Source: Pelagomonas calceolata (Eukaryota). From it: 64,000 nt of DNA. Where the stretch lies: contig CAKKNE010000002.1 of the NCBI GenBank assembly GCA_918797485.1, positions 1,240,001-1,304,000 of the forward strand, given 5' to 3'. Shown here piece by piece: positions 4,950-62,778 of the stretch (the stretch's first letter is position 1; each line of letters begins with the position of its first letter). The translations under genes were made by a program, and so were the position numbers. The notes beneath the pieces were generated by a model. It saw only the letters and a program-made list of their open reading frames with translations, was not told the DNA's origin and did not search any database.

Positions 4950-7101
4950 TTATTGTCCCAGGTACACCAGCAGATCCCGGGGGATCCGGAACGGCGGCTC
5001 CGCGCGGCCCTTCTCGCGGCGCACGGCCTCCTCGCGCATCGCGCGCGCCTCGGCGAGCCGCTCCGCGCCGGTCCGGCGGCCGTCGACGAGCGTCGGCGCG
5101 ATGCGCGGGCTCCTGCAGCTATTGTCGGCGGCGAGGCGCTCGGCCGCGTTCGCCGCCGCGTCGGCCGCGGCCAGGCTCTCCGCCCGGAGCATCGCTTGCT
5201 CCGCCGCCTCGGCGCGGTCGCCGGCCTTGTTGGCGCGGTCGCGGACGCGCCGCGCCTTCTCCAACACAGCCTCGCGCGGGTCCGGCGTCGGCGGCGGCAG
5301 CGGGTCGACGCGCGTGTAGCCCTTGGCGACCATGTCCTCGTGGATCGCCTCGGCGAGCGTCGTCGGTGATTTCGGAGCCGGCACGGGCGCCGACGCGTCG
5401 TCGCGCATGTCCGGAGGGACCAAGAGTTCCAGCACTGGGTCGCCGGTGAGCACGCGCACGAAATCGTCGTCCTTGTAAATCTCGGCCTGGTTCTGGTTCT
5501 GTAATAGCAGCGACGCGACCGCTTGCAAGGCTTTGTCCTTGGTCTCGAAGTCGGGCGCGTGGTCGACGGCGGCCAAGAGAGCGTGGCGGGCGCCGCGGTG
5601 GACCCAGACGGCCCGCCGCAGGGGCGGCGGCTGCGACAGGAGGTAGAGGGTCTCTATGACCGCGTACCGCGTGCCGGCGTCGCGGCCCGCGAGCCCGCCC
5701 GCCGCCGCGAGGTCCAGCGCGTCGCCGAGGGCCTTTTGGTCCAGCACAACCGTCGCCCCCTTCATGAGCCCGGCAAAGTCGCCCAGCGGCGCCGCGGCGT
5801 CGGCGTCGGCTTTTGCCCGGGCCTGCCGCGCGAGCGTCGCGGCGAGCGGCCCGAGCTTGGCCAGGAGCGTCGCGTCAGGTAATAGAGTTAGGAGGCGCTC
5901 CTTCGCGCGATTCACGAGGGGCCCCGGCGCGAGGCGCTCGAAGGCCGTCGCGTACAAGAGCCGCCTCAGGGGCCGGTGGGCCCAGAACTGCCTCTTGTTC
6001 GCCTCGTAGCCGGCCAGGCGGATCAGGCAATCTAAGGCGAGCGCGCGCGCGCGTGTCTCGACGCCACACTGCGACGCTACGAGTAATGCCTCGCGGACGA
6101 TTTTGCGCGGCCAGAGGTTCGCCTCGCGAGACAAAGAGCTCAGGACCATGAGCGACCGTCGTAGAGCGGCAGTCTCGACGGACGCGCCCTCGGTGTTTGT
6201 GGACGCGTCCTGCTTGACGAGGAGGCATGCGCCATTATCCAAGGCCGCCTTGCGGGACGCGGCCGTCTCGGGCGCGCGCGCCTTTTCCGTCGCTGCTTTG
6301 TGCTTTTCCGCGTCGGCGGACCAGGGTGCCTCCCGCAGCTCGCAGCCGTACTCGTAGTTCGCCCGCGCGTGTTCGACGTAGGGGATGGTCCCGCCGCCGA
6401 TGTCTTTATAGTAGTGGCGCCGGTCCCTCTCGTTGAGTCTCGCGCGTGTCCCAGCCTGCGTGGAGATCAAACAGTGAGTTGGGTCACGGGCACGACGTCG
6501 CGTCGATGGCGTCGGGCGTCCGAAATTTGAGTTCCACACAGGTCCCCACCAGATCTATTTCCAGGCGCTCGACCTGCTCCTCCAACAACTCATTCCGCTC
6601 CCGTAGCGAATTCAGGGTCGACAGCAGCGCGTCGCGGTCGTGCTTCACTCGCATGGTCAATGCTTCGATCTGGCTTTGCTTGGATCTCATATTGCCCAGC
6701 AGCCGCCTTTCCAGCTCTTCAGAGACGTATTTGAAGTGGTCGCGCTCGTCCGCCATCGCCGTGACGGTGCGGTGCAACCCGGTAGCCGTCGCTTCGATCT
6801 TTTTCAGAGCCGCTTGCGCGGCGACGGGCTGGCCCTTCTGGAGGCCGCAGCGCGCGGCGTGCGCCGCGAAGTCGAGCTTTTTGAGAGCGGCTTTCGCGCG
6901 CGTCGGGTCCGTCTTCAGTACTTTTTGGGAGGCAGCGTCGAGCACGGGATTGACGCCGCAGCCCTCGATCAATGCGAGCAGTTCCTCGCGCTTGGCGTCG
7001 CGTCGCTTCGCTTCGGTCCACGCGTGCGCCGAGCCGGGCCGCTTGGTTGGGATCGGTGCGACGCGTCTTGCCGCTGGGGCGGACCGCGGCCTGCGCTCCA
7101 T
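4950..7101 (-). CDS. Hypothetical coiled-coil plus helical (ARM-like) repeat protein; 2 exons, intron 6456-6549
   Basis: ORFs 6484..7101 and 4950..6539 join in frame (…EIDL|AGTR…) after removing a GT-AG introner intron. Confidence 0.65.
6456..6541. mobile_element. Introner element, short variant; intron 6456-6549 on the minus strand
   Basis: TIR ctgcgtggagatcaa...ttgagttccacacag. TSD on the minus strand is gtggggac (intronic) vs gctgggac (exonic), 6/8 match. Confidence 0.88.
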
Positions 7102-7548
7102 GTTGCTGGTGGCAGCCCGCCCTCGTGTCTTGTGCCTTTACTGCTGGGTCGAAGGGCTGCCGCCCGGATTTCTGTGTCGCGCGGCTCGTGTGCGACGACG
7201 GGCAGCCTTTGTCTGGCGTTGCGCACGTCGTCTGCAGCTCCGCTCTCCGGCTGTCGTGAGAGCGCGAGTGCCACCCCGCGTAACAGCCAAACAGCCGTCG
7301 GGACGCGTTCCCCGACTCTTGCTGGACCTTCTGACGATTGCTTTGCCCCGTTTTGCGACGGCTCATTTTCAAACCCGTCCTTTAGCTCTCAAATCAGCTT
7401 GGCCGCGCCTCGCATTTTACGGCCACACAAATCACCGCGGGACGCCGTCGACGCGTCCTCGCAGTTCTCCAGTAGCGCCCGGAGCCCCAGCGCGCTGCGC
7501 GGCACGGATAAAGCCGCGCCCGCCGAGCTCAAGGCCGCACCGAGCACG

Positions 7549-8508
7549 ATGTCGACGCAGCCCTGGGTCGAGAAGTACCGCCCCCAGCTTTTGAAGGATG
7601 TCGTCGGCAACGAGGAGACGGTGGCCAAGCTCCAGGCCGTCGTGAACGGCGGAAATATGCCGAATATTATCCTGTCGGGCCCGCCGGGCACCGGTAAAAC
7701 GACGACGATGCTCTGTCTGGCCCGCCAGTTGCTGGGCCCGCTCGCGAAGGACGCGGTCATGGAGCTCAACGCGAGTGATGAAAGGGGCATCGCCGTCGTG
7801 CGCGACAAGATCAAGATGTTCGCCAAAAAACGCGTCAATTTACCAGCCGGGCAACATAAATTAGTTATTCTCGATGAGGCCGACTCCATGACGGCCGCCG
7901 CGCAACAAGCGATGAGAAGGACGATGGAGCTGTTTTCTTCCACTACTCGCTTCGCGCTCGCTTGCAACACCTCGAACAAAATAACGGAGCCGATTCAATC
8001 CAGGTGTGCTATTTTGCGCTTTACTAGGTTGTCCGACGAACAGTTGTTGAGGAGATTACAGTACGTCTGCAAGGAGGAGGGCGTGTCCTACGAACCGGAG
8101 GGCTTGGAGGCGCTCATCTTCACGGCCGAGGGCGACATGCGCAACGCTCTCAATAACTTACAGTCTACTCATAGCGGTTTCTCGGTCGTGAACCAGGACA
8201 CGGTGTTCAAGGTGTGCGACCAGCCGCATCCCCACATCGCGCGCGGCATCCTCGAGGCGTGTCTGGAGGGGCGATTAGATGACGCCCTAGCGGGGTTGCG
8301 CGGACTGTCTGAGTCAGGATACGCTCCGGTAGATATCGTCGGCACCTTATTCAAGGTCGTCAAGTCGCACAAGATGCCCGAGGCGCGCCAGTTGGAAGTG
8401 ATAAAGGAGGTCGGCTTCTGCCATACTCGTATTGCTGATGGCTGCGCGTCGCTCGTGCAGCTGACGGGCATGGTCGCGCGGCTCTGCCAGCTGGCCGAGG
8501 AGAAGTGA
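7549..8508 (+). CDS. RFC2: Replication factor C small subunit (human RFC2 / yeast Rfc4 type)
   Basis: PWVEKYRP, Walker [31 protein letters not shown] motif, [11 protein letters not shown]. Confidence 0.95.
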
Positions 8509-8589
8509 GTGGGGTGTGCGTAAGAGAACTAGCTTATTCTATGGTTCGCGCGGAGTTGCTTACAAGTCCTTACTCACATGTCACAGCGA

Positions 8590-11504: not shown

Positions 11505-11573
11505 CTAGACCTCCCTTCTGCTCAAGTTCCTGCTCGACGGCGTACCCGGGGAGGTTGCCTTTAGAAATAGGAA

Positions 11574-12759: not shown

Positions 12760-14490
12760 ATGATGCGTGCACTGCTGCTCGTCGTCGTCGTGCACGGCAA
12801 GCGGGCGCCGCCGCTGGGTGGCCGCCACGGGGCGCGCCTCAGGACGTACGCGCAGCTCGGGCGGCGCCGCGTGCCGCCGCCGGGGAGCACGCCGGACCAC
12901 GTGAAGCGCGTCTACGACGAACTCGACCGCTCCGTGGCCTACTTCCCGCAGACGACGAACCGCAGCGATGCTGCAAATATTGTGAAAGAGATCCTCGCGC
13001 ACCCCTACGGCCTCGCGCTCCTGAACGGGCGTTTATTTGCCCATGAAGGGGTCGACCTGAAGACGATCCGGCAGTTCCGGTTGTTGTTGGAGGCTTCCGA
13101 GAGGCGGCGCGTCAGGAACGTCGTCGTCGCGCACAACTCGGCCTCGGATGGTAGGTGCGCCACCGTATGTAGGGACTGCGGCCACGGGAGCCACGAAAGA
13201 GATAGAGGAAGACGCCACTTACCTTCCACGCTGATAGCCAAGAAGGGCGGTTTCAAGGAAAGGTGCGGCGTTTTGGTGCCGAATCCCTACTTTGGGACCT
13301 ACAGAGAGCGCACGAACTCGACAAATTATGTCGTGAGGACGCCGTGGGTCCGGCGGCAGAACCAGGCCTTTTGGAGGGGAAGACTGATCGAGCCCGGCAA
13401 GGCGTGCATGAAGGAGAAGTGCGTGCCCGACCCGAATTTATGTGAGGGCAACCTCGCGCGCTTCGAGGGTTTGAGCCTGACGTTGCGCCACCCGGAGTTG
13501 TTTGATGTCAAGGCGTTACATATCAGCCCGAGCTGTCGTGCGCTGCGTAGAAACCAATTGCAACGCGCTAAACGCCATCGACGCGATGTTGCTCACTAGT
13601 TTATTTGCGCACAGGGACCGACAAGGCGGCGCTGCGGAACCGCTCCTGTCTTCCTACGTCCTTCGCGACGAAGATCGCGAAGCGGCTGCACAAGGTCACC
13701 GAACCGAAGCACCGTTCTCACTTGTGTGGAAATCAAATTTCGGGCGTCCCACGCCATCGACGCGACGCCGTTCCCGTGGCCACAGTCGGCTCGATGGCGT
13801 GGAGGTTCACGATTCCTAACTCACTGGTTGATTTCCACACAGGTCCTCACAACTACTATGCGAGGTTCAAGATGAACCTCCACTTTCCCGGATCGACGAC
13901 CGGTTCGTACAGTCGGAACCTCAACCGCGCGGCGCGGTGTCCTCGCCTTCACGCCATCGCCGCGACTTCCAACCAACGGCTGTTCTCGCGCAGACCTCTG
14001 GTCGACCGACGCCGTCGTGCTCATCTGGAAGCACGCCGCCGTGGAGCACTACTACCGCGGCCTGGCGCACGGCGCGACTCATTTAGACGTCGACCTCGCC
14101 TCGGCCGCGGCGACGGCGCGGGAAGTTCTTAAGAACCAGCCCCTCGTGGCGAAGCTCAAGGCCGGCGCGCAGGCCGTTGTTCGCGACCTCATTTGCCCTG
14201 ATTGTCTGGAAAAGTTCCTGGCGGCCGCGCTCGCCAAGATCCGCGCGCGGCACGCGCAGAACTTAATTCTAGACGACGCGGGATCGCTGCGCGCCGCGCT
14301 CCGCGGCGCCAACTGCACCGGCCTCGTCGAGTACCGGCAAGCGCATCCAACCCAAGACGACACGCAGCTCGGTCTGCACAAGGCGATCGAGCGGCGGGTC
14401 AGAGTCGTGCCCCTCCCCGCTGCGAAGGTGGTCGGCGACGGCGAGGACCCCGCGTGCGCGGCGCTCGTCAATACTGTATTTAACAACTAA
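12760..14490 (+). CDS. CAP10 / glycosyltransferase family 90-like protein; 4 exons, introns ~13535-13614, 13714-13842 and 13927-13993
   Basis: N-terminal hydrophobic anchor, VLVPNPYF, PW..R..AFWRG, and after splicing HNYYARFKMNLHFPGS.TGSYSRNLNHLW...EHYYRGLAHG.TH. Three ORFs join in frame. Confidence 0.7.
13543..13614. mobile_element. Decayed introner-derived intron
   Basis: Ends ctgcgtagaaac...tttgcgcacag resemble the TIR, with internal acgccatcgacgcga. GT lies 8 nt upstream at 13535 (an alternative GT at 13538 is also in frame). TSD is no longer recognisable. Confidence 0.55.
13722..13842. mobile_element. Introner element; intron 13714-13842
   Basis: TIR ttgtgtggaaatcaa...ttgatttccacacag. 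TSD gttctcac / gtcctcac, 7/8 match. Confidence 0.92.
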
Positions 14491-14512
14491 TGTACACAAG
14501 AATATTAACAAG

Positions 14513-15857: not shown

Positions 15858-17269
15858 CTAGAGGTGGACGCCGCGCGTCCCGTAGTCCTGCTCGAGGTTC
15901 TGGCACAGCTCGAGCCCGTCCTTCGACGTGTCGAGGTCGCCCTGGTCCAGACCCAGCGCGAGGAAGTCCTTCGTGTAGAACCCGTCCGCGGCGATGTCCT
16001 CGAGGACGTTGTGCTTCGCGCCCTCCCAGCCAAGAGTGGACATGACCTTGCGCACGCGCACGGCGAAGCCCTCGGCGTTCGGCCGGAAGGGGAACGAGGA
16101 TTTGGTGTCCGGCGGTAATGCCGTAACTAACGCCTCCTTGCCGAGCGCGTTCGCCGCGGCGATGCACACGTCGTCGTAGGAACACATCTTGTTCGTGCCG
16201 CAGTTGAAGATCTCGCCGCCCGCTTCACTTTCTTTGCCGACGACGGAACCGATCAACGAAGCCACATCTTCACAATGAGTGACAGAGACGGGCTGCTGCG
16301 CGTCGGCCGGGACCGGCATCGGCAGGTCCCGCGCGGCTCGGTTCAGGAACCAATCCAAATAATCGCGCTTGTTCGTGTAGGGGCCGTAGATGTACTGCGG
16401 CCGGAAGGCCGTCCACCTTCCGGGTAACTCCTTCTCGAGGGTCATCTCGACCTGTGTGGAAATCAAATTTTACGGCGCGTTCGTGCTGAAGCATCGCGCC
16501 GTCCTCCACGCCATCGATGCGACGCCTGCTCGATGGCGTAGCGATGCCGGTTCCTCGCCGCTCGACGGAGCCAGCACGGCCGCGTCATTGTGCACCCGAC
16601 GCACTGGTTGATTTCCACACCGTTCTCGACCTCGCGCTGGCCGGTCGGCGGGTCCTTGACCTTCTTCTCCTCCTTCAACATCCCCTTGGCGGCGTACATG
16701 CCCGCCGATGAGACGAAGCTGTAGAACGCATCAGACTTCTTCGCCGCGGAGATGATGGGCGCGGCGTCGCCCGGTTTCTTCGAGTTGTTGTCGAAGACGT
16801 GCGTGGCCTTGTCGCCGCAGGCGGCTTCTACGGCCGACGCGTCGGACGTGTCGACCCACTCCACATTCACGGACGACGGGAGCTCGCCGTACTTGCTGAA
16901 CGGCAAAGCTTCTTTTTTGGCGGCGCTGTCCTGCACGATGGTCACGGTCAGGTCCTTGTCAGCCAGGTTCTTGGCCAGATGAAAACCGATCTCGCCGTGG
17001 CCGCCGCCCTTGTTTTGTACCTGCGAGCGGGACACGCCGTCGAACCGACACATTGGGCACAGCGTCGGCCGAAGTTTGACGACATTGAGCCGACATCCGC
17101 GTACAGCGTCGACGGCAGCGAGGCAACAACTCGAAGACTTCCGACGCCGCAACCGCACGATGACCGCATGGCCGGCGGCGTTGAGGGCCGTGCTGGATCT
17201 AGCAGTGGGGGCCGGGGCGAAGCACTCCGCGCCTAATGCGAGAGCGAGGACGACGGCGGCGGCACGCAT
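15858..17269 (-). CDS. CSP41: Chloroplast stem-loop binding protein CSP41-like (atypical SDR/epimerase fold), plastid-targeted; introns 17021-17158 and 16452-16630
   Basis: Signal peptide plus AEC-FAP (ASAFAP-like), GGGHGEIGFHLA, FVSSAGMY, FRPQYIYGP, WFLNR, FPFRP. Exons join as QRE|VEMT. Confidence 0.85.
16452..16622. mobile_element. Introner element, long variant; intron 16452-16630 on the minus strand
   Basis: TIR ctgtgtggaaatcaa...ttgatttccacaccg. TSD atctcgac / ttctcgac, 7/8 match. Confidence 0.92.
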
Positions 17270-20516: not shown

Positions 20517-20769
20517 CGCGTTCTGTCGCCATTAGCCCCGTGCGGCCACTCGTGCGGCCCCTCTTCGCCCATCATCGTGGACGGCGCAATGTCATAAAAA
20601 GTTATGAGTATGAGTATGCTTCTCCTCACGCGTCGTATCCCTGGCCTACGCGTGCACGCGCCGCCGCTTTCAAATGCCTCAACATGGGGTGTGTGATGTT
20701 TTTTGTTCGCCTGCTCGGACGTCGCATGCGCAGCGGCGGCGGCGCCAGCGGTTAAACCGCTCGATACAA

Positions 20770-22774
20770 ATGGCGGTGCCGTTGCGGCGAAGCCGCTGTA
20801 GACGCAGCATCCTTGGCCGAGCCGTAGTCGCTGCGATTTTGCTCTCGGAAGCGGTGCAGTGTATTCAGTTCAAACGTAAGCGCGCGGGCGTGAGCCATCG
20901 TGCGGTGCGGCCAGCGGTGTCGACAGCTACGCCAGCGGCTCCATCAAAGGCCAAACCGTCGAATACGGCCGCGGTGACAGGAAAAAATAACATCCTACCG
21001 CTGTCGGCGCCGCAGAACAAAATCGACGCGGCCACGCTGACGGCCCTGGTCGCCGCGGACCCCGGAGACGAGCTGGACGAGCCTCTGCGCCTCGTTTCCG
21101 GCGCGATTCCGAAGGACCTGCGCGGCACGCTCTACGTGAACGGCCCGGCGCGGGTCATCGACGGCCGCGGCCGCGCGGCGCACCCGCTCGACGGCCACGG
21201 TTTTGTAAGGGCGTTTTCATTTGGCGCACGGACGGATGCGGCGAAGCTCGCGGCCGCCGCCTCCACCAACGCTAATGACGCGTCGACGTCCATTGGTGGC
21301 AGCACAGTGGCGGCAGACGGTCGCTCGGGCGTGACGGTCCGCGGGCGCTTCGTGCGGACGTGGGCGTACGAGATCGAGAACTTCTTCGACCGCAACCTGT
21401 TCCGGGGCTTCTTCTCGCTGCCCTTCGCGCCGTCGACGCCGCTGCGCCTCTTCAACGCGCTGTCGCTCTGGCGGAAGAACGTGGCCAACACGGCCGTCGT
21501 CGCCTGGGCGGGGCGGCTTCTCTGCCTCTGGGAGCAGGGCCCGCCGCACGCGCTGGATGTGGAGACGCTCGAGACGGCGGCCGGCTGGGACCACCTTAAT
21601 TATTTAGAGACGCCGGCGTGCGCCGTGTCGCGATTGCGGCCGCTGCTGGCGCACACCAAGGTCTGGGTCGAGAATGATGGAAGGGAGCGCCTCGTCGGCC
21701 TGTCGGTCGTGGGCTCACATTTTACATTTTACGAGTTCGACGAACGCGGCGATCGCGTCGCGACCGTCGCCACGGAGCTGCCGTTCGCGAACCCGCTCAC
21801 CCACGACTTCAGCCTCACGGAGCACTATTACATTGTCGCGGAGAACCCGGTGCGGTACGAACCGGACGTCGCCGGGGCGCTGGACGGGTCGCAGCCCGCG
21901 CTAGGGCCATCCTTTGTCGCTTCCGCCGACGACCGGCCTGGCCTGCTCGCGCTCGTGCCCCGCGACGGGTCCGAGCCGATCGTCCTCGACGCCGGCGACG
22001 CGTCGATCGTCTTCCACTACGCGAACGCGTGGGAGGAAGGATCGCGTATCAAAATCGCGGCGTGCGCGTTCGACCGTTATGAATTGGGCGCCGAGTACGG
22101 CTTCGACGCGGCGGGCGGCCGTTTCGATCCGAACTTGCTACTCCGTGACGATCTGTGTGGAAATCAAAATTTCACGTCGCGTCCTGCTGAATCGGCGGGT
22201 CGACCTCCACGCCATCGACGCTGCGCCTGCTCGATGGCGTGGCGATGCCGGTTCCTCACCACTCGACAGAGCCAGCACGGCAACCCGACACACTCTTGGT
22301 TTCCACACAGGCCACGACAACGCCTGGGGCCCGTTCCTCCGCGTGTCAACAATTAATCTCGCGGCGGCAACGGTGTCGCACACTACGGTGGAACACGTTC
22401 ATCGGGACTTTCCCCGAGTCCATCCGCGAAGGGAGGGCCGGCCGACGAAGTACGCTTATGTCGCGGCGTCGCCCCATCTCCAGGAAGGCGAGCCGTTCTT
22501 CCCCTTCCAGTGCATTCAGAAGGTGGCGCTGGACGGCTCCGACGAAGTCATCACGTGGAGGCCCGCGCGCCCGGGCTGCTTCGTCGGCGAGCCGGTCGTG
22601 GCGCCGCGTCCCGGCGAAGTCAACGAGGACCACGCGTGGCTGCTGATAGTCGTCCACGACGTCCACGCCGCGGCGACGGACCTCGTGGTCCTCGACGCAC
22701 GGACGCTCGCCGTCGCCGCAGAGCTGCGCGTCGACCGGCTCCTGCCGCTCGGCCTCCACGGCACGTGGGCCTGA
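20770..22774 (+). CDS. Carotenoid cleavage dioxygenase (RPE65/CCD family); intron 22145-22310
   Basis: GAIPKDLRGTLYVNGP, HPLDGHG, KNVANT, four Fe-ligand His (LAHTK, THDF, FHYAN, GLHG), DFPRV, GEPV. Exons join as LLR|HDNAW. Confidence 0.88.
22153..22310. mobile_element. Introner element, long variant; intron 22145-22310
   Basis: TIR ctgtgtggaaatcaa...ttggtttccacacag. TSD gtgacgat / gccacgac, 5/8 match. Interior closely resembles 16452-16622. Confidence 0.9.
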
Positions 22775-23304
22775 TTGTTGTTGAAAACACCCCCCTATAT
22801 GTATAAAGTCTAACTCACTTATGCCGTGCGTGTTGCATCGCATCGGCCTAGAGCATCGGCCCTCGCTACGACTCGCTGCTAGGAGTTGGGCGGAGAGCTT
22901 GAAGACTCGGAAGGCCTCTCAATCCAGGCGCACACGTATCGTTGAGGCCGATGGTGCAGCTAGGCCCTTCTGCTGCTTTTGCGGTTTTGCAATTCAAACA
23001 AGCAGCGCCGCTCATAAGACACTTGCGTGGCAACAGAGACCAAGAAAAGACACACGCCGCGCCTCCAGCGTCATAATCGTCACCTCGAAATCTCGCCTTC
23101 ATTGGCCCTCGGCGCATCGCAAATCCGCTGCCGTCCGTCGACCGTAGCTCGCATCACACACACGCTAGCGCTATGTAGCGCTAGCTGTGACGCGAGACGG
23201 CAGCGCGGCGCTGCGAGACCGTCTCGCGCCACACAAAAAACGCGGCCACCGCCGCCGCCACACATTTTCATCACCTTTAACCATGGCTACACGCAGCGCG
23301 CAGC

Positions 23305-26300
23305 ATGCTACGGCGCGCCGCCTGGCTGACGAGCCGCCGCGCGGCCGCCGCGCTCCGCACGCACAAGCCAAGCACTACTCATGTGACCGCCGACGGCATC
23401 GACGGCGCGTCCGTCGGCATCTCGTTACCGGAGGAGACGATCGTGCCCGAGGCCGGCGCCTTCCGCCCGATGACCTACCTCAACGCGTCCACGGTCGTCG
23501 AGGTCAACCCGGCCACCGCCTTCGGCTCCTCTAGCCTTGCGGTCAAGCCAATTTTGGTGGAGCCGCCCAAAACCTTAATTCGCCCACCGTCCATCGGCAC
23601 GAACCTCGTCGGCGGCTCAAGACTCCTGGACTTTGTCAGCGCTTCGTCGACGGCGTCCATCGAGTCCATCCCTAGCCAGTCGCCCATCAAGGCATCGCTC
23701 GACGTCGTGCCCATCAAGACATCGCTCGACGTCGTGCCCATCAAGACGCCCCTCGACGTCGTGGCGACGCTCGAGCTCCCCAAGGCCGACGAAGCAGACC
23801 TCGTCGGCATCTCAAGCCTCCTGAACATCAGCAGCACTTCGCCGACGGCGTCCATCCCCAGCCAGTCACCCATCAAGACGTCGCTCGACGTCGTGACGAC
23901 GCTCGAGCACTCCTACGATGACCAGTCCTCGTCCTGGCGCCCGCCGTCGAAGGCGTTGGCAGTTCTGGTGGCTCTCGGTGTTGTTGGCACTTTGGGCGAG
24001 ATTCAGCCCGACGCCGACTGCGCACGGCTTAAGCAGGGCTTGCGTGGCCCTTCTACCGAGTGTGACTGCCTCAACTTCGCCCAATTTCCCGACGGCGTCG
24101 GCGTCGACGCCTATCCGGACTGGGTGCAGCCGTGTGGTGCTAGGGTTAACGGGAAAAAGGCTCCTGGTAGTGCTGGGCCAGGTGCAGTTGGAGAATCGCG
24201 CCACGGCGTGGCGAAAAACTGCCCCAACTTTCTAGCGCACGAGGAGCTGTTTCTAGGACAGCCCGTCTTTGGCGGCGTCCATAAGGGCACGTCAAGCAAG
24301 TCGTGCGGCGTGCTCGGCAAGCCTACCGATTGTGACTGCATCAACTTCGTGCAACTGCCCGAAGGCGTCGGCCTCGACGCCTATCCGGACTGGAAGCAAC
24401 CGTGTCGTGCTAGAGTGCAGGGGAAAAAGCCTCCTAAAGGCGCTCCCCCTGGGACGATTGGAGAATCACCGCACGGCGTGGCGACGACCTGCTCCAACTA
24501 TTTAGCGTACAAGGATCTGTTCCCACGGGAGAAAGTTTTTGCCGGCGTCTGTAAGAGCACCCACTCGGGCCCGTCGGGCAAGCAAGCCAAGACGCCGCTG
24601 CCACTATCCCAGGAGATCATGAACGGCGTGGACGCGGGCCTCCCTCGCATCAAGACGCTGTTCAACGTCCTCGAGCGCTACCGGCCCATCCTCTCGACGA
24701 TCATCCCGGCCGTCGACGAGAGCCCTAATGTCCGCTCCGCGCGCGAGGCCTGGATCAAGCTGCTGCAGGGCGCGAAGAGTTGCGAGGGCTCGACGCCGAT
24801 AGAGTACAAGATGTTCGACATCGAGAAAATGCAGAAGACGCCGTGGGGGCAGGCGTTGCGCGAGGCTGCGCCCAACTCAACTTTCACGACGCTTGCGTTC
24901 TTTATTTATTTTAACACAGGCGCGACGAGGGCAAGGAGGGCGAGGCCGTCGCGCGCGAGGCGGTCCAGCTCGGCATCGTCACGGCGACGTTGAAACGGGG
25001 CCTGGCCTTCGGCGACCTCAAGGTGGTGCTGGATGATGCGGAGACGAGAGGCCTCGGCGAAGACCGTGTCCGCAACGACCTGACGAGGACGCTGGGCCAC
25101 GGCGACAAGCTGTGCGTCTACGGCCTTTACCCGGAGCGTGATTTGTTGGAGTACTGCAAGTGCCTCGACGGCGTGGACTACATCAACGTCCACGGGGCCG
25201 TGTGTCACGCGATGGGCATGGACCCGCATGGCTATCACCGGAGGCCCGGCTTCGTGGCGCCCTGCCCGATCGCAAGCAGCGGGGAAATGATGGAGCAGCT
25301 GCGGAACGGCGTGTACGCTGAGGTCGTAAAGGACTGGAACGTCACGAGCTACCCGCACGTGGCGGCGCGCTCGCGCCTCGTGGACAAAAAAAAGGGCAAG
25401 GTCGACGACCCGTCGTTCATGGCGTTGCTGGCGGCGGATTTCGCCAATGCCGGTTTGGACGGGTTGCGGGCGGCCTGGACGGGGACCGACGCGTTCCTGG
25501 AGGGCAAGGTCGTGACGCTGCCGCCGCGGCCCACGGATCTCAAGAGCTGGTACGTGGACAACCCCTCGTACGACGTGCCTCGGGAGCAGCGCCCCGACTA
25601 CCAGGAACCGAAGAAGCCCTCCAAGAAGAAGGAGGTGAAGACGGCGGCCATCCCCGACGTCGCTTTCAACGAGTCGACCTTTGTCTTCGAGGGCTGCGAG
25701 CATTACATCCGCGACGTGGTCTCCGTGGACGGCGTGATCTGCGTGGACCACTATCAGAAGGCCCTCGACAAAGGGGACTTCATTACGTTGGTCCGGACGC
25801 CGTTGGAAGAGCTCATGTCCAACGGGACGACGTCGGCGCCGGCGCCTGGCGCCATGCAGGCGCCGCCGAACTTCGGGAAGGACATCCGCAGCTATTTCGC
25901 GCCCGCCGCCACCGCTTCGGCCGCAGCGCCGACGGCGGGCGAGGCGCTCCCTGCCGCTGGCACGGATTTTCCGAAGATCCCGTTCAACCCGCGGGACTTC
26001 GACCTCAAGCCCGGTGCAACGGTCCCGACCACGCAGCCCACGAAGAATATTAGATGGGCGTTGCGATTGACGGAGTTACAAATGGACGAGGATGGCGACG
26101 CCAAAAACATGTGGAGACCGAGACAGAGACAGTCCGCACTCCGGCAGGCCGCCGCGGCGACGGCGCGGCGCGTCGTCGCACCGGTCGTCGAACCGGCCTC
26201 GCCGCCCGGCTCGCCGCAGCACGAGTCGTCTTCGACGCCGACGCCGTTCCAGCCCGAGGTCACGGACCTCACCTACTCGCCGCCGCCGCCGCGGACGCCG

Positions 26301-26834: not shown

Positions 26835-27047
26835 GGGCGCTTCTCCCTTCCCCGACGTTCCTCTCTCATTCCCCGCCCCTTGATCCCCCGGCCTCCCGTT
26901 ATCTCTCGGGTAAGGCTTTCGTGTGAATACCGGTTACTTAGCTTGATATCTAGTCGCGTCGACAGCGGCTCGCGGACGTAGCAAGCGCGCAGAGCCGCCC
27001 GGGCGAGGCCGCCAGGGGGTCGACGACAGGGGCATAAGTATGTTAAA

Positions 27048-35918: not shown

Positions 35919-36297
35919 GCGCGCCAGGGCGGTGCCTGAAGAATTCCTCTCCTCTTGCCGGCCGCCGCTCGCCGACGCCCCCCGTCGACGACCCCCTCTG
36001 CCGCCAACCCCGCGAAGTTTTAACATGTTCCGCTCGCAAATTTACTCTTATTATTATCGCACGGGTTTCTTCCTGCTTTTGCGGCTTTTTTGCGGTGCTT
36101 GCGTACGGCGGCGGGCGAGCTAGGCCGAAATTATTCGATCAGTGACGATAACGTGCCAGTCGCATTGGCTAGACTGCCTATCTGTGCCACAGCTTCCTGG
36201 TAGACAATCATAACCAATCAAGCCAATTGCAGCGGCGCCGAGATCGCCCGCACAATTCAGCCGCGATCGACCGCACAATTCAGCCGCGACGACGACG

Positions 36298-36971
36298 ATG
36301 AGGCTCGCCGGCCTCCTGCTAGCGTTGCTGATCCACGGAGGCTCGCCGGTAGAACTCTCGCCGGTAGACAAGGATACATTCCCGCGTTAAAACTCATCGG
36401 CGGGATCCTCAACGCGAAGGATTTGGGCATTGACAAGAAGAAGACGTACAAGAAGAAGCACCACCATCATCACGAGTATCGACCTGCGTGGAAATCAACC
36501 AGTGAGTTAGTGTTTCGGAGGGAGACGACATCGCGTCGATGGCGTGCGGTGCCTAAAATTTGATTTCCACACAGGGATCCGGTCACAGCCGCGGCCCATA
36601 CGATCCAGAAATTGTTCAAAGGTAAGCAGTCGCCGGCCACGAGCCAGGTGTCCGCCGAGCTGTCGCCTTACGTCGCCTCCGAACGCTTCCGCAGCGAGGA
36701 GTCGCCGCCGCAGAACGTCGTCGTCGCCGCCGTGGCGTATCCCTTCAAGGCCGTGGCAGGGTTGTTTATGCCCGCGCCGCAGCGCCGCCAGTCCGACGGG
36801 GACCTCTCACCGATGACGGCGAGCCGACCTGTGAGCCGCGCCAACACCTCGACCACGACTATGCATTCGCCGCCGCCTGCGCCGCGGATGCTCGACGACC
36901 ACGAGCTCCCGCGGCCACCGATCGCTCGCAACGAACGCGGGCTCGGGAGCACGTGGTACGGCGAGTCCTGA
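36298..36971 (+). CDS. Small hypothetical protein; intron 36476-36574; 5' structure unresolved
   Basis: Splicing joins KKKHHHHHE|DPVTAAAHTIQKLFKGK in frame. The ATG at 36298 is in a different frame. Confidence 0.4.
36484..36574. mobile_element. Introner element, short variant; intron 36476-36574
   Basis: TIR ctgcgtggaaatcaa...ttgatttccacacag. GT lies exactly 8 nt upstream; TSD gtatcgac / ggatccgg is decayed (4/8). Confidence 0.88.
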
Positions 36972-46346: not shown

Positions 46347-49300
46347 ATGGAAGAGGAAATGGACAAAGGGCGTATGGCGGAGGAACTCGAGATGGGCGCC
46401 GCGCCCGCGAACTGGCCGAGCCCCCGCGACTTGGACGACCTCATGGCCGACCGCGAGGTCGCGAACCTCCAATCCTTGCTCAAGGCGAACGGCCAGACGT
46501 CGATGCAGCAGTGGCTCCAAGTAGATCCGTCCCAAGGCCTCTCCAGCGATATCGAGAAGCGCCGAACAATTTATGGAAGGAACGCCTTCGACGCGAAGCC
46601 GCCCACCTCCTTCTTCGCATTCTGGTGGGACGCGATGCATGATGGGGCGATCATCGTTTTATCTGTCATGGCCGTCGTTACTATTTTAGTATGGCTCTTC
46701 GTCGAAACTCCTAAATGTGTTCCCAATGGCTATTTGGAACCCGTCGCTCTCGTGTTTTCCATCTCAGTTATTACATTAACAACAGCTGGAATAGATTTCA
46801 GCAAGGAGCGGATGTTCGCCGCCTTATCGGATCAATTGGATGCGTCCAATAAAAAATTCGTGCTGCGGAATGGACAAACGTTGGAACTGCCGGACGCGGA
46901 GATCGTCGTCGGTGACATCGTTACGTTTAATGCTCATAATGCGGCGTCGGTGCCCGCGGACGGCGTCCTCGTAGCTGGTTCGGGCGTGAAGATGGACGAG
47001 GCCGCTCTCAACGGCGAGCCCGAGCCCGCCGAGAAGAGCGCCGAGAAGCCTTTTATATTATCTGGCACGGTCTGTACGTCTGGTTCTGGCAAATTGTTAG
47101 TGTTAGCGGTAGGAACACATAGTGTATCAGGTAAGATCAAGGCCGCGGTCTACGGCGAGGCCGAGGAGGAAGGCGGGTCCCCGCTCTTCGACAAGCTCGA
47201 CAAGATGTCCCTGAAGATCGGCAAGGCGGGCATGTACCCGCGTCTCGCTATCTCGGCACCGCGGCCATGTTTTCGGCCCAAACTCGGACACGACGTCTCT
47301 CTGATACAATCGACCGAGTTGAGCGAGCAGAACTTCTCTCAGACCACGAGAGACCACGAATTGAAGGGCGCTTGAACTTTGATTTCCACACAGGCATGTT
47401 CGTCGCGACGGTCGTTTTTCTTGTGATGACGATCGTGGGTGTTTTTATCAAGGGCGGCCCGGCGCGCGAGATCGTGCACTACATCGTCCAGGCCATTACT
47501 ATTCTTGCGGTTGCGGTTCCCGAGGGTCTGCCGTTGGCCGTTACGCTGTCCCTGGCGTTTTCGTCGTCGAAGATGAGTCTGGATAATAATCTCGTGAAGA
47601 CCTTGAAGGCCTGCGAGACCATGGGTTCTGCTACGACGATCTGTTCGGATAAGACGGGAACATTGACCGCGAACCGGATGACCGTGCGAGGTGCCGTGGT
47701 GTGCGGGGTCGTGAAGCCAGCCTTGGACCCTAGGATCGATACCGCCGAGTCGAGGAAGTCCGTCGGTCAACGACTAAGAGCAGATAAGAATATACCGAAT
47801 GAAGCGCTGGAAGAGTTGGGAAGACTCATCAGCGTGGACACGATGGACGAGAGCGCCGTGGTCTTTGAAAATGGCGACAATGCGCCGCCGGCGTTCAAGG
47901 GCAACCCCACCGAATGCGCGTTGCTCGAACTTTGCAGGACCCTATCGATCGACTGGCGTGGGATTAGGGACTCAGCAATTGGTCGGAGTGATGCCACTCG
48001 TTCGCAGGGCCACCCGTTCATGTTCTCGTCAGCGCGCAAGCTCATGAGCTGGGCCGTGCCTCGGGAGCGGGGCTATCGGGTCTACGTCAAGGGCGCGGCC
48101 GAGATTGTTTTGTCAAGATGCGCCTGGGAGGTGTCTTCCACGAACCGTGTTCAAAAACTGAAGGACGAGCGGAGGGAGTCTTTTTATGTGAACGACGTCG
48201 TCAAGTCCTTCGCCGCCAGCGCGATGCGGACCATCGCGCTGGCCTACAAAGATTTCGACCGTCTGCCCCAAGATTGGAGTCAAACGACTGATGAGGTAAA
48301 AAATGCGGACGGGACCGACGCCTTCGTGGCGGAGACGGAGCTCGTGTTGATGGGCATCGTCGGCATAGAAGACCCCTTGCGAGATGAGGTTCCTCCCGCA
48401 ATTAATCGGTGCTACGGCGCCGGGATTGATGTGCGCATGTGCACGGGCGACAACCTGGCGACGGCCGTCGCTATCGCGTCGAGATGCGGCATCCTGCGGA
48501 AGGAGCACTATAAACATGGTAGGATGTCGCCGCACGTCTCCGACTTGTTGAAGGATCGGGCCATGACGGGCAAGGAGTTTCGCAAGCGGGTCCATAATAG
48601 TGAAGGCGTCTTCGTGCAGGCGGCCTTCGACGAGATCTGGCCTCGACTCAGGGTCATGGCGCGGTGTGATCCCGACGATAAACATACATTAGCACATGGT
48701 CTCAATAAATCACTGCTCTTCCAGGACACGGAGACGTGCGCTGCCCTCAAAGAGGAGGGCATCACGATCTTTCCCGACCGCCAGGTCGTCGCCATGACCG
48801 GCGACGGGACCAACGACGCGCCGGCGCTGAAAAGAGCGGATGTTGGCTTCGCCATGGGCATCTCGGGCACGCAGATCGCCAAGGACGCGGCGGACATTAT
48901 TCTGTTAGATGACAACTTCGCGTCCATCGTCACGGCGGCCAAGTGGGGGCGCAACGTCTACGATTCGGTGTGCAAGTTCCTGCAGTTCCAGCTTACTGTC
49001 AATATTGCCGCTATCTCCGTCGCGGTCGTCGGGGCTTTTAGATACCAGGAATCGCCCATAGCGGCGGTCCAGATGCTCTGGATCAACCTGATCATGGACT
49101 CTTTGGCTTCTCTCGCATTAGCGACGGAGCCGCCCGACGACGCGTTGCTCGATCGACCGCCCGTCAATAGATCGGATTCCATCATCTCAGAACAGATGTG
49201 GTACAACATGGTCGGCCACGCGGCCTACCAAGTCGTCGTCATGATGCTCTTGTATTATGATTTAGGTGCTTCCCTATTAGATACGGAGCCGAACGGGACG

Positions 49301-49861: not shown

Positions 49862-50248
49862 GTCGTTCTTGCCCCCGGCCTAAGGTTTCGCTCTATGGGA
49901 AGTAGCTATAGTCAATTCGGGTTGCGGGGGCGCGCGCCTAGAGGGGTGACGGGGGAGCTATCCCCCGCGAGCGTGTACAAGCTCTCGTGATTTTTTTGCG
50001 TCACGGGTTTTCGCCAAAGACTTCATTGATTCCTGGGTTTCGTCGGTCTGGAGCGTACGCGCGTCATCGGAGCGGTTTCTAGCAACAGTTTGACGCGACG
50101 GGGAATCGTTTGAGCGCGTGTAGTGCCCCAGGGAAAGTCAGGCACAGCTGGGATCATATAACGCTTGCGCCACGCTTGCGCCCCACAGCTTGCGCCAGAA
50201 GCACGTTGTCCGTGACCATTAATACTCTCCGCACGTTGACAGCCGACG

Positions 50249-53954: not shown

Positions 53955-54525
53955 GGTGGTCCTTGGTTCACTGCAGCAGCAAGTGGCAGCAGCGCTGTAT
54001 GGGCCTTTGCGCTCGTTTTCCGGCCTTGCCACTCCCGCAGCAGCAGCAGCACAGTGCGATAGTTAGCGCTTGGAGGTCTGGGGCTTATCGGCGGCGCGTG
54101 TACGGCAAGCGCTGGGACTTCAGCTGAACATGGCTGAGTGCCTGCTTGCTAGAGCCTTACAGGCCGCTAGCGCGCCGCGCGCTCTTTCTCCTTTGCACCC
54201 GTCCTTTAAGCCCTTTTACGCGTCCCAGACTCCTTCTTGGTACGTTTGCGTGGTGGACCTCGCGAGCCCGAAGGCCGTGGCGTCACAGCTTAAACCAAAG
54301 CTGATTGTCCACACCAGCGTCTACCTTTTTGCATCATCGAATCGCTTCGTGGTCGTGCGCTGTCAAACGCGTCGCAGCCGCGAAATTCTGCAGCGACGTC
54401 GCATTTTCACGGAGATCACAAGCACCGGAGAGCGCAGCCAAAGATCCAAGGCGCGACACCGATCACGAGAGCAAAGACAAGGCGCCACAGCACGCCAGCG
54501 ACGCATCCTTAACACAGGTCAAAGA

Positions 54526-55908
54526 ATGGCTAAAGCCGCGACCATGTTCCTGCTGGCCGGCGCCGCGCGCGCGCTCCGCGGCCACCGCCTCCACCACTTA
54601 GCAAGACCTTCTAGAACGGTCATGTCCGCGGCGACGCTCGACCGCACGACCCCCACCAAACTCCAAGACGCCGAAAGTTTCCTCAAGGACATCGACGTCT
54701 TCATTTTTGATTGTGACGGCGTGATCTGGAAGGGCGATTCATTGATCGACAAGGTCCCGTCCGTCTTGGAATTACTGAGAAAGCTCGGAAAAAAAATCTT
54801 CTTCGTGACGAACAACTCGACCAAGTCCCGCAAGGGCTACAAGGGCAAGTTCGAGAAGCTTGGTCTTGACGTCGAGCCCGAGGAAATTTTTTCTTCTTCG
54901 TTCGCCGCGGCGGCCTACCTGGAGCAGACGGAGTTCAAGAAGACGGGCAAGAAGGTCTATATTATCGGCGAGGTCGGCATTGAAGAGGAGTTGGACCCTG
55001 CGTGGAAATCAAATTTCGGGCGTCCCGCGCTTCCGTAGCTGCGTCTGCGCGATGGCGTGGCGATTCCACGCCATCGACGCGACGTTATCCCCGTGGCCGC
55101 GTCGGCTCGATGGCGTGGAGGTCACGAAGGTCCACGCAATATTTTCTCGGGATGAACTAACTCACTGAGTGATTTCCACGCAGGCTGGACCTCATCGGCG
55201 TGCCGTACATCGGCGCCGGCAAGGACTCGGACAAGGAGCCGAACATGAAGCCCGGTGTGTGACCGGCGTCCCGTTGATGCGGCGATGGCGTGACGCGGCG
55301 ATGGTGTCGCGTCCGATGTTACGCGTCGACACCGTGACGCGTCGCTCTGATGGCGTCGCGGCGGGAGTAGTCCTACCCCGCCCGCGCGCCATCGACGCCG
55401 TCTCGGGACCGCCCCCACGCCATCGACGTCATATCACGCAGGCGGCAAGCTCGAGCCCGACGAGGACATCGGCGCCGTCGTCTGCGGCTTCGACCGCGAG
55501 ATCAACTACTTCAAGATCCAGACGGCGCAGCTCGCCATCAACGAGATGGGCGCCGAGTTCATCGCGACGAACTTGGACGCGGTCACGCATCTCACGGACG
55601 CCCAGGAGTGGGCGGGCAACGGCGCCATGGTCGGCGCGATCAAGGGCTGCACCGGGCAGGAACCTACTTTAGTAGGGAAGCCGTCGCCGCTCATGATCGA
55701 CTACATGGAGAAGAAGTTCGGCCTGGACCGGTCGCGCATCTGCATGGTCGGCGACCGCCTCGACACGGACATCCTCTTCGGCAACGACAACGGGCTCAAG
55801 TCGTGCCTCACGCTGTCGGGCGTGACGACGGAGGAGAAGCTGCTCTCGCCGGAGAACAAGGTGATCCCCGACTTCTACGTCGACTCGATCGCGGACTACC
55901 TCGGGTAG
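54526..55908 (+). CDS. PGLP: Phosphoglycolate phosphatase (HAD IIA), likely organelle-targeted; introns 54990-55183 and 55255-55441
   Basis: FIFDCDGVIWKG, FVTNNSTKSR, FIATNLDAVTHLTDAQEWAG, VGKPS, CMVGDRLDTDILFG, LSGVT. Three exons join in frame. Confidence 0.93.
54998..55183. mobile_element. Introner element; intron 54990-55183
   Basis: TIR ctgcgtggaaatca...tgatttccacgcag. TSD gttggacc / gctggacc, 7/8 match. Confidence 0.93.
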
Positions 55909-56955: not shown

Positions 56956-58517
56956 CTAGAATTCGGCCACGGCGAGCGTCTCGAGCCGCGGCTTCCCGTA
57001 ACGGTCCGCGCCGGGCCGCGGCATGGTCGGGGCCTCGACGGCGTAGAATTGAGCCTCATCCTCATCATCCGACTCACTCTCCACCACCGCAGCAGGGGAC
57101 CGCGACGCCCACGCGCGCGGCGACGCCGTGTCGCCCGTCCGCGGGGGCGGCGGCGGCATTAGAGGTGCCGACATTGTCCGATGCACGCGCCGCCGATCCA
57201 GCGCCGTCGTCGCCTCCAGCGAACTTTCTGGAGAAGTCGTCACGCGCGACACCTCCATGGCCGGCGACGGCTCCGGAAAGAATGATTCTGAGTCGATTTC
57301 CGGGAAGGGCGGCGCTAGCAGTTGCTCGACGGCGTGCCAATCTGTCGAAGCAAACGCGGGCGCCGCCCGCACGTCGTCCGCCAAAGGTCGGGAATGGGGC
57401 TCCTTCTCGAGGAGAGCTTCGAGCGTCACCGCCAAGGACTCGTCCTCGGGCAAGGAAGGCGTATCATTGAGAATAGACGCCATGAGCTGCCGCGGCGTCT
57501 CCGCGTGGAAGGGTGTACTACCAGTGGCCAATTCGCCGACGAGGATCCCAAGGGCCCACCAGTCGACGGCGACGCCGTAGGCGTGGCCCCGCAGGATTTC
57601 CGGCGCCATGTACTCGACGGAGCCACAAAAAGACCGGCACCCTTGGAGCGGGTCCTTGCCGAGGGCCGCGAGGCCGAAGTCGGCGACGACGCAGTGGCCC
57701 TGTGTTTTGTGACGGGTGAGGGGCGCAGCGACGGCGTCGCAGCGCGTCGCGTCGATGGCGTCGACGCGATACGCCGTCGGCGTGGCCCTCAGAGACTCTA
57801 CGCGCCTCGCGAGAGAGCCGCGGCAGTTCGAGAAGGAACGGACGCCGGAAAACGGACCTGGTCGTCAATCAACACGTTCGAAGGCTTGCAGTCCCGGTGG
57901 ACGACGCCGTGCGCGTGCAAGAACGTTAAAGCAACAACTAACTCAGCAAACGCAGCCACACAACTCTCGAGGGACACCTGTCTCCTTTTCAATAAAGTCT
58001 CCAAGGAACCGCGCGAGAAGTAGTCCGTGACCAGGTAGAAGGAATCTTGCGCCTGGAAGGCGTAGCGCAGGTCGATGACGAAGGGTCCTCCTTTCGATTG
58101 CAGAAACCCGAGGATGAACGGCTCGGCCTTCGAATTGGGCGGCTTCCGCCGGTCTTTTTTGCCGGGCTCCTTCTTCTGGCAGACCTTCATGGCAAACAAG
58201 CAGCCCTCGTCCGGGGGTTGGCGCTTCCTCGCTAATACGACGGTGGAAAACGCGCCTCTGCCAATCTCCTCAAGCACTTCAAAGCGGTCCTCGGCCTCGC
58301 GCGTGTCGCTCACGGACGAGGAGGCGGTGACATCAGATCGAGAGCGACCTAACGACAAGGCTGACAACGACCGCGTCAATCGCGACGACGTCCGCGACAG
58401 CGAGCGGGACCAGCTTTTCCGGAGGGGCTCGTCGCTCTTCGCCGTGTTCGGCTCGTCCTCGTGCTGTTTCCTGCTCTTGCGCCGGGGGCTCGACCGGCCG
58501 AAGAGGGAGAGGGGCAT
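56956..58517 (-). CDS. AGC-family Ser/Thr protein kinase; intron 57700-57857
   Basis: IGRGAFSTV, AMK, LRYAFQ, HRDCKPSNVL, after splicing DDQ|GHCVVADFG, SFCGSVEYMAPE, VDWWALG. Confidence 0.9.
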
Positions 58518-60261: not shown

Positions 60262-60384
60262 CTTGTAGCTTCTGCTCGTTGGCGTCGGGGGGCTACTCCT
60301 GCCACAGTGAGCATCACGCAGCGCTTCCCCCGCCTCGAAGGCGGCGGTCGCCGCACAAGGCGTACGCGATCCCCTAAGTAGTAC

Positions 60385-61152: not shown

Positions 61153-61530
61153 GGCTGCTTTTGGACCTCGCCTCGGTGCGCTATTTTGGCCTCGCGTCGG
61201 CGCGTCGAGACCTTAAGACTGCCTAGCTGCAGCTCTGCCGATCTGAGGCCTACAGCGGGCGCGTCACAAGCCGCCGAGGCAAGAAACGCTGTCGGAGCAG
61301 AGTCGAGACGCGAACCTACCTTCGTGCCGGTCTACACGTGTCGGCGTCGCTTCTGTTGAGCCGCTGGGCAGGGAGAGCTTGAGGCTCTGCACACAGAGCG
61401 CTGCAAAAAAACGGCGCCTGGCGACGCGGACGGACTGCTAAAGCGATAGGACACGGTCTCAGGACCAGACCAGTGCTGCCAAACGCTTGCTGACGCTTGT
61501 AGTCACCTCGCGCCGAGGCACAGGGAGCAA

Positions 61531-62778
61531 ATGTTGCAGCATGGTTTCTGGCATGGTACGGCGCCTCGTCGAGATCGAGGCCGGGTCGAACGCGACGGAG
61601 AGTCAGTTCTTCATCGACATGGAACGCCGCACGAGCCTGCAGATCTCGGTCGCCTTCACGCTGGCCGTCGCGGCGGTCGTCGCGTGCTGCGGCCTGCGGC
61701 GCTCGTAGCCCTCCTTTGCTTCGCACCGGCGGCGGCGCGGAAGCCAAAAGGCGTGCGCGCGAAGAAAAGCGGCGTCGACGCAAAAGCGCTGGCCGTCAAG
61801 GCCTGCTGCGAGGACGCGACGACCGCCGAGCTGATCGTCGCGATGCGCGGCGGCAGCGACGAGCGCACGGCCGCGGACCACGCGCTCGCCGCGCGCGACG
61901 GCGCCGACAAGACGATGGCCGTCGAGATCCAGGAAGTTTTGGACTTGAGGGGCTCGGACACGGCGTGCCTGCTCGCCCTGGGCGCCGAGTGGTGCGGGCC
62001 CTGCAAGGTGCTCAAGCCGTTGCTACGGAAGGCCGCCGAGGCGTCTCAAGGGACACTCATACTGAAGGAAATTGACGTCGACAAAGAAAGACCGATCGCG
62101 GAGGCGCTGGAAGCGACGCAGCTGCCCTGCGTCTACAGCGTGAGGGACGGCAAGTTGCGAGACGTCATCGTCGGCCTGCCGCGGTCGCACCAGGACCTCG
62201 CGGCCTTCGTCATGCGCGCCATGGATGGGGAGGGCGGTGCTTCCACAGTTCCGGGCAGCCGGACCGTCAATTTGGCGCGCGTCGCGGGCTCGGCCGCCCT
62301 GGGCGCGGGCGGCCGCGAGGCCCTGGCGGCCAAGTGCCGCGGCGCGCTCGACGCGTGTAGGGAGCTTGCGGCGTCCGACAAGGATACGGTGATGGAGGCG
62401 CTCAAGACGACGAAAGCGTACCTAGAGCGGGCCTACGGCGGCAAGCCGGTCTATCGCGACAACGCCGTGTTTGTGGAGAACTGTGTGGAAATCAAACAGT
62501 GAGTTAGGTTATCCTGAGATTTGTTGCGGGACGACGTCGCGTCGATGGCGTGGGGCGCCCGAAATTTGATTTCCACACAGGTGGAGAAGGTGGCCCCCTG
62601 CGCGCCGGCTTTGGACTTGTTTGCGGCGGCTGGGTACGTGGAGATTCCCGGCGACCCTGAGGGTTCAGATGACGAGAAAAGAGACGCCTTACACCCGACG
62701 CATCGCAATCTAGCCGTCTTCGAGCTCTGCTGCGCCGAGATCGACAAGGCAAGAGATGAGCTGCGCGTGATGACGTGA
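61531..62778 (+). CDS. Thioredoxin plus PUB-like domain protein (sPUB-like); intron 62473-62580; start uncertain
   Basis: Hydrophobic LRPAALVALLCFAPAAA, WCGPCK, IDVD, and after splicing a PUB-like ALKTTKAYLE..NAVF|VEKV..ALDLFAAAGY. Confidence 0.7.
62481..62580. mobile_element. Introner element, short variant, best preserved; intron 62473-62580
   Basis: Perfect 16-nt TIR ctgtgtggaaatcaaa...tttgatttccacacag and perfect TSD gtggagaa / gtggagaa. Confidence 0.95.

What the first reader, a model, noticed from the sequence alone, without database searches (positions are those of the whole stretch)
6456..62580. Family of intron-generating TIR elements (introners) spliced out seamlessly via their own target-site duplication
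Seen: 8 copies start at 6456, 13722, 16452, 22153, 36484, 47238, 54998 and 62481. All lie inside coding sequence, are 86-186 nt long, and are bounded by CTGYGTGGAAATCAA...TTGATTTCCACRCAG (the donor-side end is decayed at 47238). In every copy a GT or GC lies exactly 8 nt upstream of the element, at the start of an 8-nt duplication. Removing one TSD copy plus the element restores the frame and conserved protein motifs (PGLP, PMCA, CSP41, CCD). Established: non-autonomous DNA-transposon introners with TIRs and 8-nt TSDs are described in the pelagophyte Aureococcus anophagefferens, so the class is known. I cannot tell whether this particular TIR family is described. Inference: 8-nt TSDs are compatible with a hAT-, P- or Merlin-type transposase acting in trans; none is encoded in this window.
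Basis: partly seen in the sequence, partly recalled or inferred. Interest (0 to 1): 0.88.

Follow-up and report, generated by a model that had tools for sequence, protein, structure and literature searches.

The report
Known intron-making transposons in marine alga
Short jumping-DNA copies sit inside genes of a tiny marine alga, most likely Pelagomonas calceolata, and are cut out of the RNA as introns without changing the protein; this is real but already catalogued for that species.

Summary
All 8 copies are present, plus a ninth, older copy at 13543-13614 (16 TIR matches vs 0.14 expected). RNA shows the predicted junction at 3 of 9 sites, in both element orientations, and 4 DNA runs lack the joined forms. 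Related genomes have empty sites with one target copy at 3 of 9 sites; homologous proteins read through 2 more. The 8-nt duplication is clear for the family (53 of 72 bases match), but only 1 of 9 is perfect. At 2 sites the target began GG, so the donor GT was not simply co-opted.

Gene order matches Pelagomonas calceolata. Its genome paper reports 956 putative TIR introners with GT/GC donors. A 2025 survey lists a 340-copy family, classed hAT, that co-opts the 5' site and carries the 3' site. No paper text gave its sequence, so identity is inferred. No transposase was found.

Minor additions are apparent donor improvement after insertion (+2 is T in 5 of 5 copies that differ there), a possibly much larger family, and an internal 12-mer shared with other non-coding DNA.

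The parts
6456..6549 (-). Predicted 94-nt intron: 8-nt target copy (6542-6549, starts GT) plus element 6456-6541; host gene unannotated
   Evidence: host strand from stranded reads; junction not seen in RNA, not tested by homology
13535..13614 (+). Ninth, diverged copy; predicted 80-nt intron; exon-side target starts GG
   Evidence: empty site in L123 identical to the exon copy, 8/8
13714..13842 (+). Predicted 129-nt intron (element 13722-13842)
   Evidence: exact 129-nt gap vs L123
16452..16630 (-). 179-nt intron in an NAD-dependent epimerase-family gene (element 16452-16622)
   Evidence: RNA junction: 308 reads in X21 and a contig in X11, 0 in DNA runs X3 and X4; empty site in L122, L123/124, L125-127
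22145..22310 (+). 166-nt intron in a carotenoid oxygenase (RPE65) gene (element 22153-22310)
   Evidence: X11 contig leaves the window exactly at 22144; Pfam halves on either side; joint row itself not displayed
36476..36574 (+). Predicted 99-nt intron (element 36484-36574); exon-side target starts GG
   Evidence: homologues read through as the 99-nt removal predicts; too little RNA depth
47230..47393 (+). 164-nt GC-AG intron in a P-type Ca-ATPase gene; donor-side TIR lost (9 of 15 mismatches)
   Evidence: RNA junction: 18 reads in X22, contigs in X10 and X12, 0 in DNA run X2
54990..55183 (+). 194-nt intron in a HAD/phosphoglycolate phosphatase gene (element 54998-55183)
   Evidence: RNA junction: 602 reads in X22, contigs in X10 and X12, 0 in X2
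62473..62580 (+). Predicted 108-nt intron with a perfect 8-nt duplication, in a thioredoxin-domain gene
   Evidence: 4 homologues read through without insertion; not covered by the RNA lays

Best explanation
These nine copies are introns that most likely arose by insertion of a short non-autonomous cut-and-paste DNA transposon (an introner): three are shown to be spliced out exactly, and the rest are predicted to be. Inferred: a transposase encoded elsewhere cuts the target with an 8-nt stagger and duplicates it. Shown from sequence: each element end finishes in CAG, so either orientation supplies the acceptor, while the donor lies at the first two bases of the upstream target copy. Shown for 3 copies: splicing removes one target copy plus the element and restores the original coding sequence. 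Inferred: insertions survive mostly where the target starts G-Y. Afterwards the unused donor-side end decays, and the intronic target copy drifts towards a stronger GT donor. The family is most likely the P. calceolata introner family already catalogued (fam2, classed hAT).
For: TIR enrichment. Only a duplication length of 8 fits: 53/72 matches vs 14-31% for lengths 4-7 and 9-12. Positions 3-8 match 40/54 vs a permutation mean of 19.9, and 0 of 100,000 permutations reach it. RNA junctions at 16452-16630, 47230-47393 and 54990-55183; joined forms absent from DNA runs X2, X3, X4. Both orientations are spliced: end A is acceptor in 5 copies, end B in 4; RNA-proven for A once and B twice. L122 keeps the neighbouring older intron but lacks the 16452 copy and holds one target copy identical to the exon copy. 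L123/L124 (one genotype) lack the 13535, 13714 and 16452 copies. Terminal CAG is kept at 9/9 acceptor ends but at 6/9 donor-side ends. Gene order CCD, Ca-ATPase, phosphatase equals Pca_2p06840/06970/07020. Published TIR introners in that species.
Against: 6456 has neither junction nor homologue support. TSD identity is only 4/8 at 36484, although its TIRs are perfect, and 2/8 at 13543; both targets began GG, which simple co-option does not explain. No transposase was found in the window. In the searchable part of the species annotation the only 'transposase' is Tc1-like, and hAT, Merlin and MULE Pfams were absent (file cut when stored). No within-species empty site was seen: DNA runs X2, X3 and X4 carry the copies where they cover them. 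The published TIR letters could not be compared (logo is a picture; no TIR letters in supplement text).
Confidence: 0.9

Rival explanations
1. The introns spread through RNA, by reverse splicing of whole introns, and the TIR is only a fold-back structure.
For: The 2 copies with GG targets have intron starts unlike the downstream exon. The TIRs pair in the predicted pre-mRNA fold in most copies.
Against: Locus-specific 8-nt duplications in 7 of 9 copies (5/8 or better). Use of either element end as acceptor. Reverse splicing predicts no duplication and one orientation (established knowledge).
Confidence: 0.04
2. MITEs landed inside older introns, or old introns were lost in the relatives.
For: L123/L124 lack every intron compared in this region, including non-TIR ones, so loss in that lineage cannot be excluded from it alone.
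Against: The intron is exactly element plus one target copy. L122 keeps the older 17021-17158 intron yet lacks the TIR one, and the more distant L125-L127 are empty too.
Confidence: 0.03
3. It is an introner family, but a distinct, uncatalogued one, not fam2 or the published putative introners.
For: No sequence-level match to a published consensus could be made. Lengths here (80-194 nt) lie below the reported 210-bp intron peak. The species has 11 listed families.
Against: At 9 copies per 64 kb it must be among the largest families. fam2 is the largest listed and has the same layout: TE start 7 columns after the donor, TE end at the acceptor, 13-bp TIR, GT/GC donors.
Confidence: 0.12

Closest known systems
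Pelagomonas calceolata introner fam2 (PMC12130899, supplementary file 8, row 1080; also fam1, fam5, fam24)
   Same: Same inferred species. TIR DNA element of about 200 bp with a 13-bp TIR; 'co-opt 5' carry 3''; donors gt 281, gc 42; donor 7 columns before the TE start; acceptor at the TE end.
   Different: That table gives no TSD length for fam2 and counts 340 copies. Here the TSD is 8 nt, both orientations are shown spliced, and the local density suggests more copies. Sequence identity untested.
P. calceolata putative introner elements (PMC9481584, Supplementary Note 3)
   Same: 956 putative elements, GT and GC donors, AG acceptor, conserved TIR.
   Different: The logo is a picture and could not be read.
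Aureococcus anophagefferens introners (Huff, Zilberman and Roy 2016; paper not held, seen only as described in 10.1101/2020.10.14.339549)
   Same: One splice site carried, the other recruited from the TSD. That preprint likens its own 8-nt-TSD, either-orientation classes to the A. anophagefferens pattern.
   Different: Different species. TIR sequence not compared.
hAT superfamily MITEs (RepBase hATv-2N1_EHux is the listed hit for fam2)
   Same: 8-nt TSD and short TIR (hAT features recalled).
   Different: Ends start CTG rather than the usual CAG/TAG (recalled consensus). No transposase in hand.

Membership tests
TIR DNA-transposon introner | Similar introns at unrelated loci | tested here: met
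   9 copies in 8 genes (two in one gene)
TIR DNA-transposon introner | Terminal inverted repeats | tested here: met
   15-nt TIR, 0-3 mismatches at 17 of 18 ends
TIR DNA-transposon introner | Locus-specific target-site duplication | tested here: met
   8-nt register 53/72; weak at 2 of 9 copies
TIR DNA-transposon introner | Spliced out, restoring the coding sequence | tested here: met
   RNA junctions at 3 of 9; contig edge fits a fourth; homologue read-through at 2 more
TIR DNA-transposon introner | Recent gain: empty orthologous sites | tested here: met
   3 of 9 sites at DNA level; others not covered
TIR DNA-transposon introner | One splice site carried, the other co-opted from the TSD | tested here: met
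   Acceptor carried 9/9. Exon copy starts GT/GC in 7/9 and GG in 2/9
P. calceolata fam2 / 956 putative introners | Same species | tested here: met
   Three marker genes in the same order; GC 64.3% vs 63.6%. Species level only, by annotation, not by sequence
P. calceolata fam2 / 956 putative introners | Sequence identity to the published consensus | not testable with these tools
   No TIR letters in supplement text; logo is a picture
hAT superfamily | 8-bp TSD | tested here: met
   shared with P and Merlin (recalled), so not diagnostic
hAT superfamily | Usual CAG/TAG termini (recalled) | tested here: not met
   Ends start CTG; the consensus is recalled, not from a call
hAT superfamily | Cognate hAT transposase between the same TIRs | not testable with these tools
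   No genome held; none in window; none in the stored part of the species annotation
RAG-like/Transib (AanRAGL) | 5-bp TSD and CAC-starting TIRs | tested here: not met
   PMC9435367 part 1
Tc1/mariner | TA duplication (recalled) | tested here: not met
   8-nt locus-specific duplication

The most novel reading that the evidence does not exclude
This one family, in successive waves, made most P. calceolata introns (thousands, not 340-956), and its copies record new introns maturing. Insertions are first tolerated at weak GC and even GG donors, then fixed by a +2 change to T in the intronic target copy. The element also carries a 12-mer that the host uses in intergenic DNA and older introns, possibly a captured host protein-binding site.
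Probability: 0.3. Interest if true: 0.5.

Novelty: already known. Interest (0 to 1): 0.2.

Why it matters
It is a clean example of how new spliceosomal introns arise in bulk in one of the ocean's abundant small algae. The mechanism and its presence in this species are in print. What is still open is the transposase that moves the element. Because each copy keeps its original target in the exon, the family also lets one read how a new donor site improves after insertion.

Tried and rejected
No own genome was held, so no genome-wide scan and no search for a long autonomous copy.
Two 25-nt end patterns gave 0 in viral contigs, and one gave 0 in prokaryote genomes. There is no sign of viral carriage at exact-match sensitivity.
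AanRAGL was rejected as the mobiliser. The Tc1-like gene Pca_3p03790 does not fit an 8-nt TSD. Rfam gave 0 matches.
The element profile found no copy in 9 related loci (best E 0.65).
Summed contig depth on the element is in the thousands-fold range, but the tool states it is no copy number, so it was not used.
The first lay, at 90% likeness, was swamped by other copies and hid 400 joint rows.
Three look-ups of earlier scan findings returned nothing.
Huff et al. 2016 is not held.
Searches for hATv and for donor strengthening in introners (0 papers at 4 of 5 terms) gave nothing usable. This is too narrow to claim the latter is unpublished.
Full report
OBSERVATION. The 15-nt TIR matches 16 times at up to 2 mismatches, against 0.14 expected. 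A ninth, diverged copy lies at 13543-13614. Aligned, the copies have two different sub-terminal ends: end A with a branch-point-like CTAAC/CTCAC, and end B. They share an internal 12-mer, doubled as an inverted pair in the longer copies, and their middles vary.

SPLICE ANATOMY. On each host's sense strand the intron begins GT (8 of 9) or GC (1 of 9) exactly 8 nt before the element and ends at the TIR's CAG. Only a duplication of 8 nt fits: 53 of 72 bases match, against 14-31% for lengths 4-7 and 9-12. Positions 3-8 alone match 40 of 54 against a permutation mean of 19.9, and 0 of 100,000 permutations reach that. Per copy the match is 8, 7, 7, 7, 7, 6, 5, 4 and 2 of 8. End A is the acceptor in 5 copies and end B in 4. 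The terminal CAG is intact at 9 of 9 acceptor ends and at 6 of 9 donor-side ends, as expected if only the acceptor is under selection (inference).

RNA. Exact junctions were seen for 16452-16630 (308 reads in X21 plus an X11 contig), 47230-47393 (GC-AG; 18 reads in X22 plus X10 and X12 contigs) and 54990-55183 (602 reads plus X10 and X12). The joined forms are absent from DNA runs X3 and X4 (first lay) and X2 (second lay). X21 and X22 are one sample; X10 and X11/X12 are two further studies, whose RNA status is the tool's guess. No junction row appeared for 6456, 13535, 13714 or 36476; depth at 6456 and 36476 was low.

EMPTY SITES. One metagenome scan gave 12 loci. L122 (86% nucleotide identity) keeps the neighbouring older intron, so it is genomic, yet it lacks the 16452 copy and holds a single target identical to the window's exon copy. 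L123 and L124 are one genotype (100% identical over 14.7 kb), syntenic with the window. They lack the 13535 (80 nt), 13714 (129 nt) and 16452 (179 nt) copies, and also the non-TIR introns, so on their own they cannot separate gain from loss. L125-L127 are empty at 16452; L121 may be a transcript. L128 and L131 were not aligned exactly, and L129, L130 and L132 do not cover the site. At protein level, 4 of the 6 homologues examined (of 7 found) read through the 62473 site with no insertion, two of them from 17-kb and 86-kb contigs. At 36476, 7 of 33 homologues extend across the site with the His-rich upstream sequence and match the 99-nt removal; 5 others carry the downstream anchor with a different upstream sequence, and 21 lack the anchor.

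A DEPARTURE FROM SIMPLE CO-OPTION. Position +2 differs between the two target copies in 5 of 9 cases, and the intron has T in all 5 (exon C at 6456, 22153, 54998; exon G at 13543, 36484). At 22153 and 54998 the exon change could be synonymous drift. At 13543 the empty site in L123 equals the exon copy 8 of 8 and starts GG. At 36484 homologues keep the Asp that needs the G. So two targets began GG, and the GT arose later in the intron copy, or these insertions had another history. Nine copies cannot settle this.

MOBILISER. None of 195 window ORFs of 130 aa or more hits a transposase family. No genome was held. In the stored part of the P. calceolata annotation the one 'transposase' is Tc1-like, and six transposase Pfams (hAT, Merlin, MULE, piggyBac and Harbinger types; accessions and labels recalled) had no row. 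That file is cut, and repeats were masked before part of the gene prediction. The RAG-like transposon of Aureococcus has 5-bp TSDs and CAC ends and does not fit.

ORGANISM AND PRIOR WORK. The host proteins' nearest named relatives are pelagophytes. The order carotenoid oxygenase, Ca-ATPase, phosphoglycolate phosphatase matches Pca_2p06840, 06970 and 07020, and GC is 64.3% against 63.6%. The species is therefore most likely P. calceolata. Its genome paper (PMC9481584: passages, supplement 2 part 1, supplement searches; preprint 10.1101/2021.10.25.465678: passages) reports 956 putative introners with GT/GC donors, AG acceptor and a conserved TIR. PMC12130899 (passages and supplement rows) lists 11 families for the species. 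Its fam2 has 340 copies, a 13-bp TIR, class hAT by a RepBase hit to hATv-2N1_EHux, mechanism 'co-opt 5' carry 3'', and the TE starting 7 columns after the donor. That is this layout. The consensus letters are in no supplement text I could search and the logo is a picture, so identity is inferred. Huff et al. 2016 was not held; I rely on passages of 10.1101/2020.10.14.339549, PMC11282704 and 10.1101/2022.06.06.494994. PMC12166617 had no pelagophyte passage.

SCALE AND INTERNAL MOTIF. Nine copies in 64 kb extrapolate to about 4,500 in 32 Mb (95% Poisson 2,058-8,542), above the published 340-956. The window was picked for having them, so this is biased upward. The internal 12-mer occurs 13 times exactly in the window, against 0.1-0.45 in Markov controls. 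Six are in TIR copies; seven lie outside, in introns without TIRs (13952, 57760) and at other places, mostly between genes (9811, 15815, 51649, 52664, 56881). It has no exact match in the 9 related loci scanned, but a degenerate version sits at the orthologous place in L130. It may mark decayed older copies or a host site; this is untested.

VERDICT. Interest 0.2.

Noticed in passing
window 13927-13993 (+): 67-nt GC-AG insertion absent from L123. It carries the internal 12-mer and an end-A-like 3' end but no TIR; probably a decayed tenth copy, the third intron in this gene.
   Followed up: partly
window 17021-17158 (-), 54307-54517 (+), 55255-55441 (+): Three RNA-confirmed introns without TIRs. 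55255-55441 holds several degenerate copies of the 12-mer. 17021-17158 is shared with L122 and absent from L123.
   Followed up: partly
window about 57704-57860 (-): Likely intron splitting a protein kinase domain (Pfam halves); it carries the 12-mer and no TIR.
   Followed up: no
window 9811, 15815, 51649, 52664, 56881: The element's internal 12-mer stands alone outside TIR copies, mostly between genes or at 3' ends; degenerate at the orthologous place in L130.
   Followed up: partly
window 36204-36968 (+): The host of the 36484 copy has 33 metagenomic homologues on short contigs, many at 85-96% identity, with mosaic N-termini; it looks like a variable multi-copy family.
   Followed up: no
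window 20518-27042: This block, including the carotenoid oxygenase gene, is missing at the syntenic place in L123/L124.
   Followed up: no
window about 49921-49978: 67 RNA reads end loose at 49978 and the DNA contigs break at 49921-49961; a repeat or an assembly difference.
   Followed up: no
window 1-4839 (+): Long ORF with REJ, PKD-like and GPS domains, polycystin-like.
   Followed up: no
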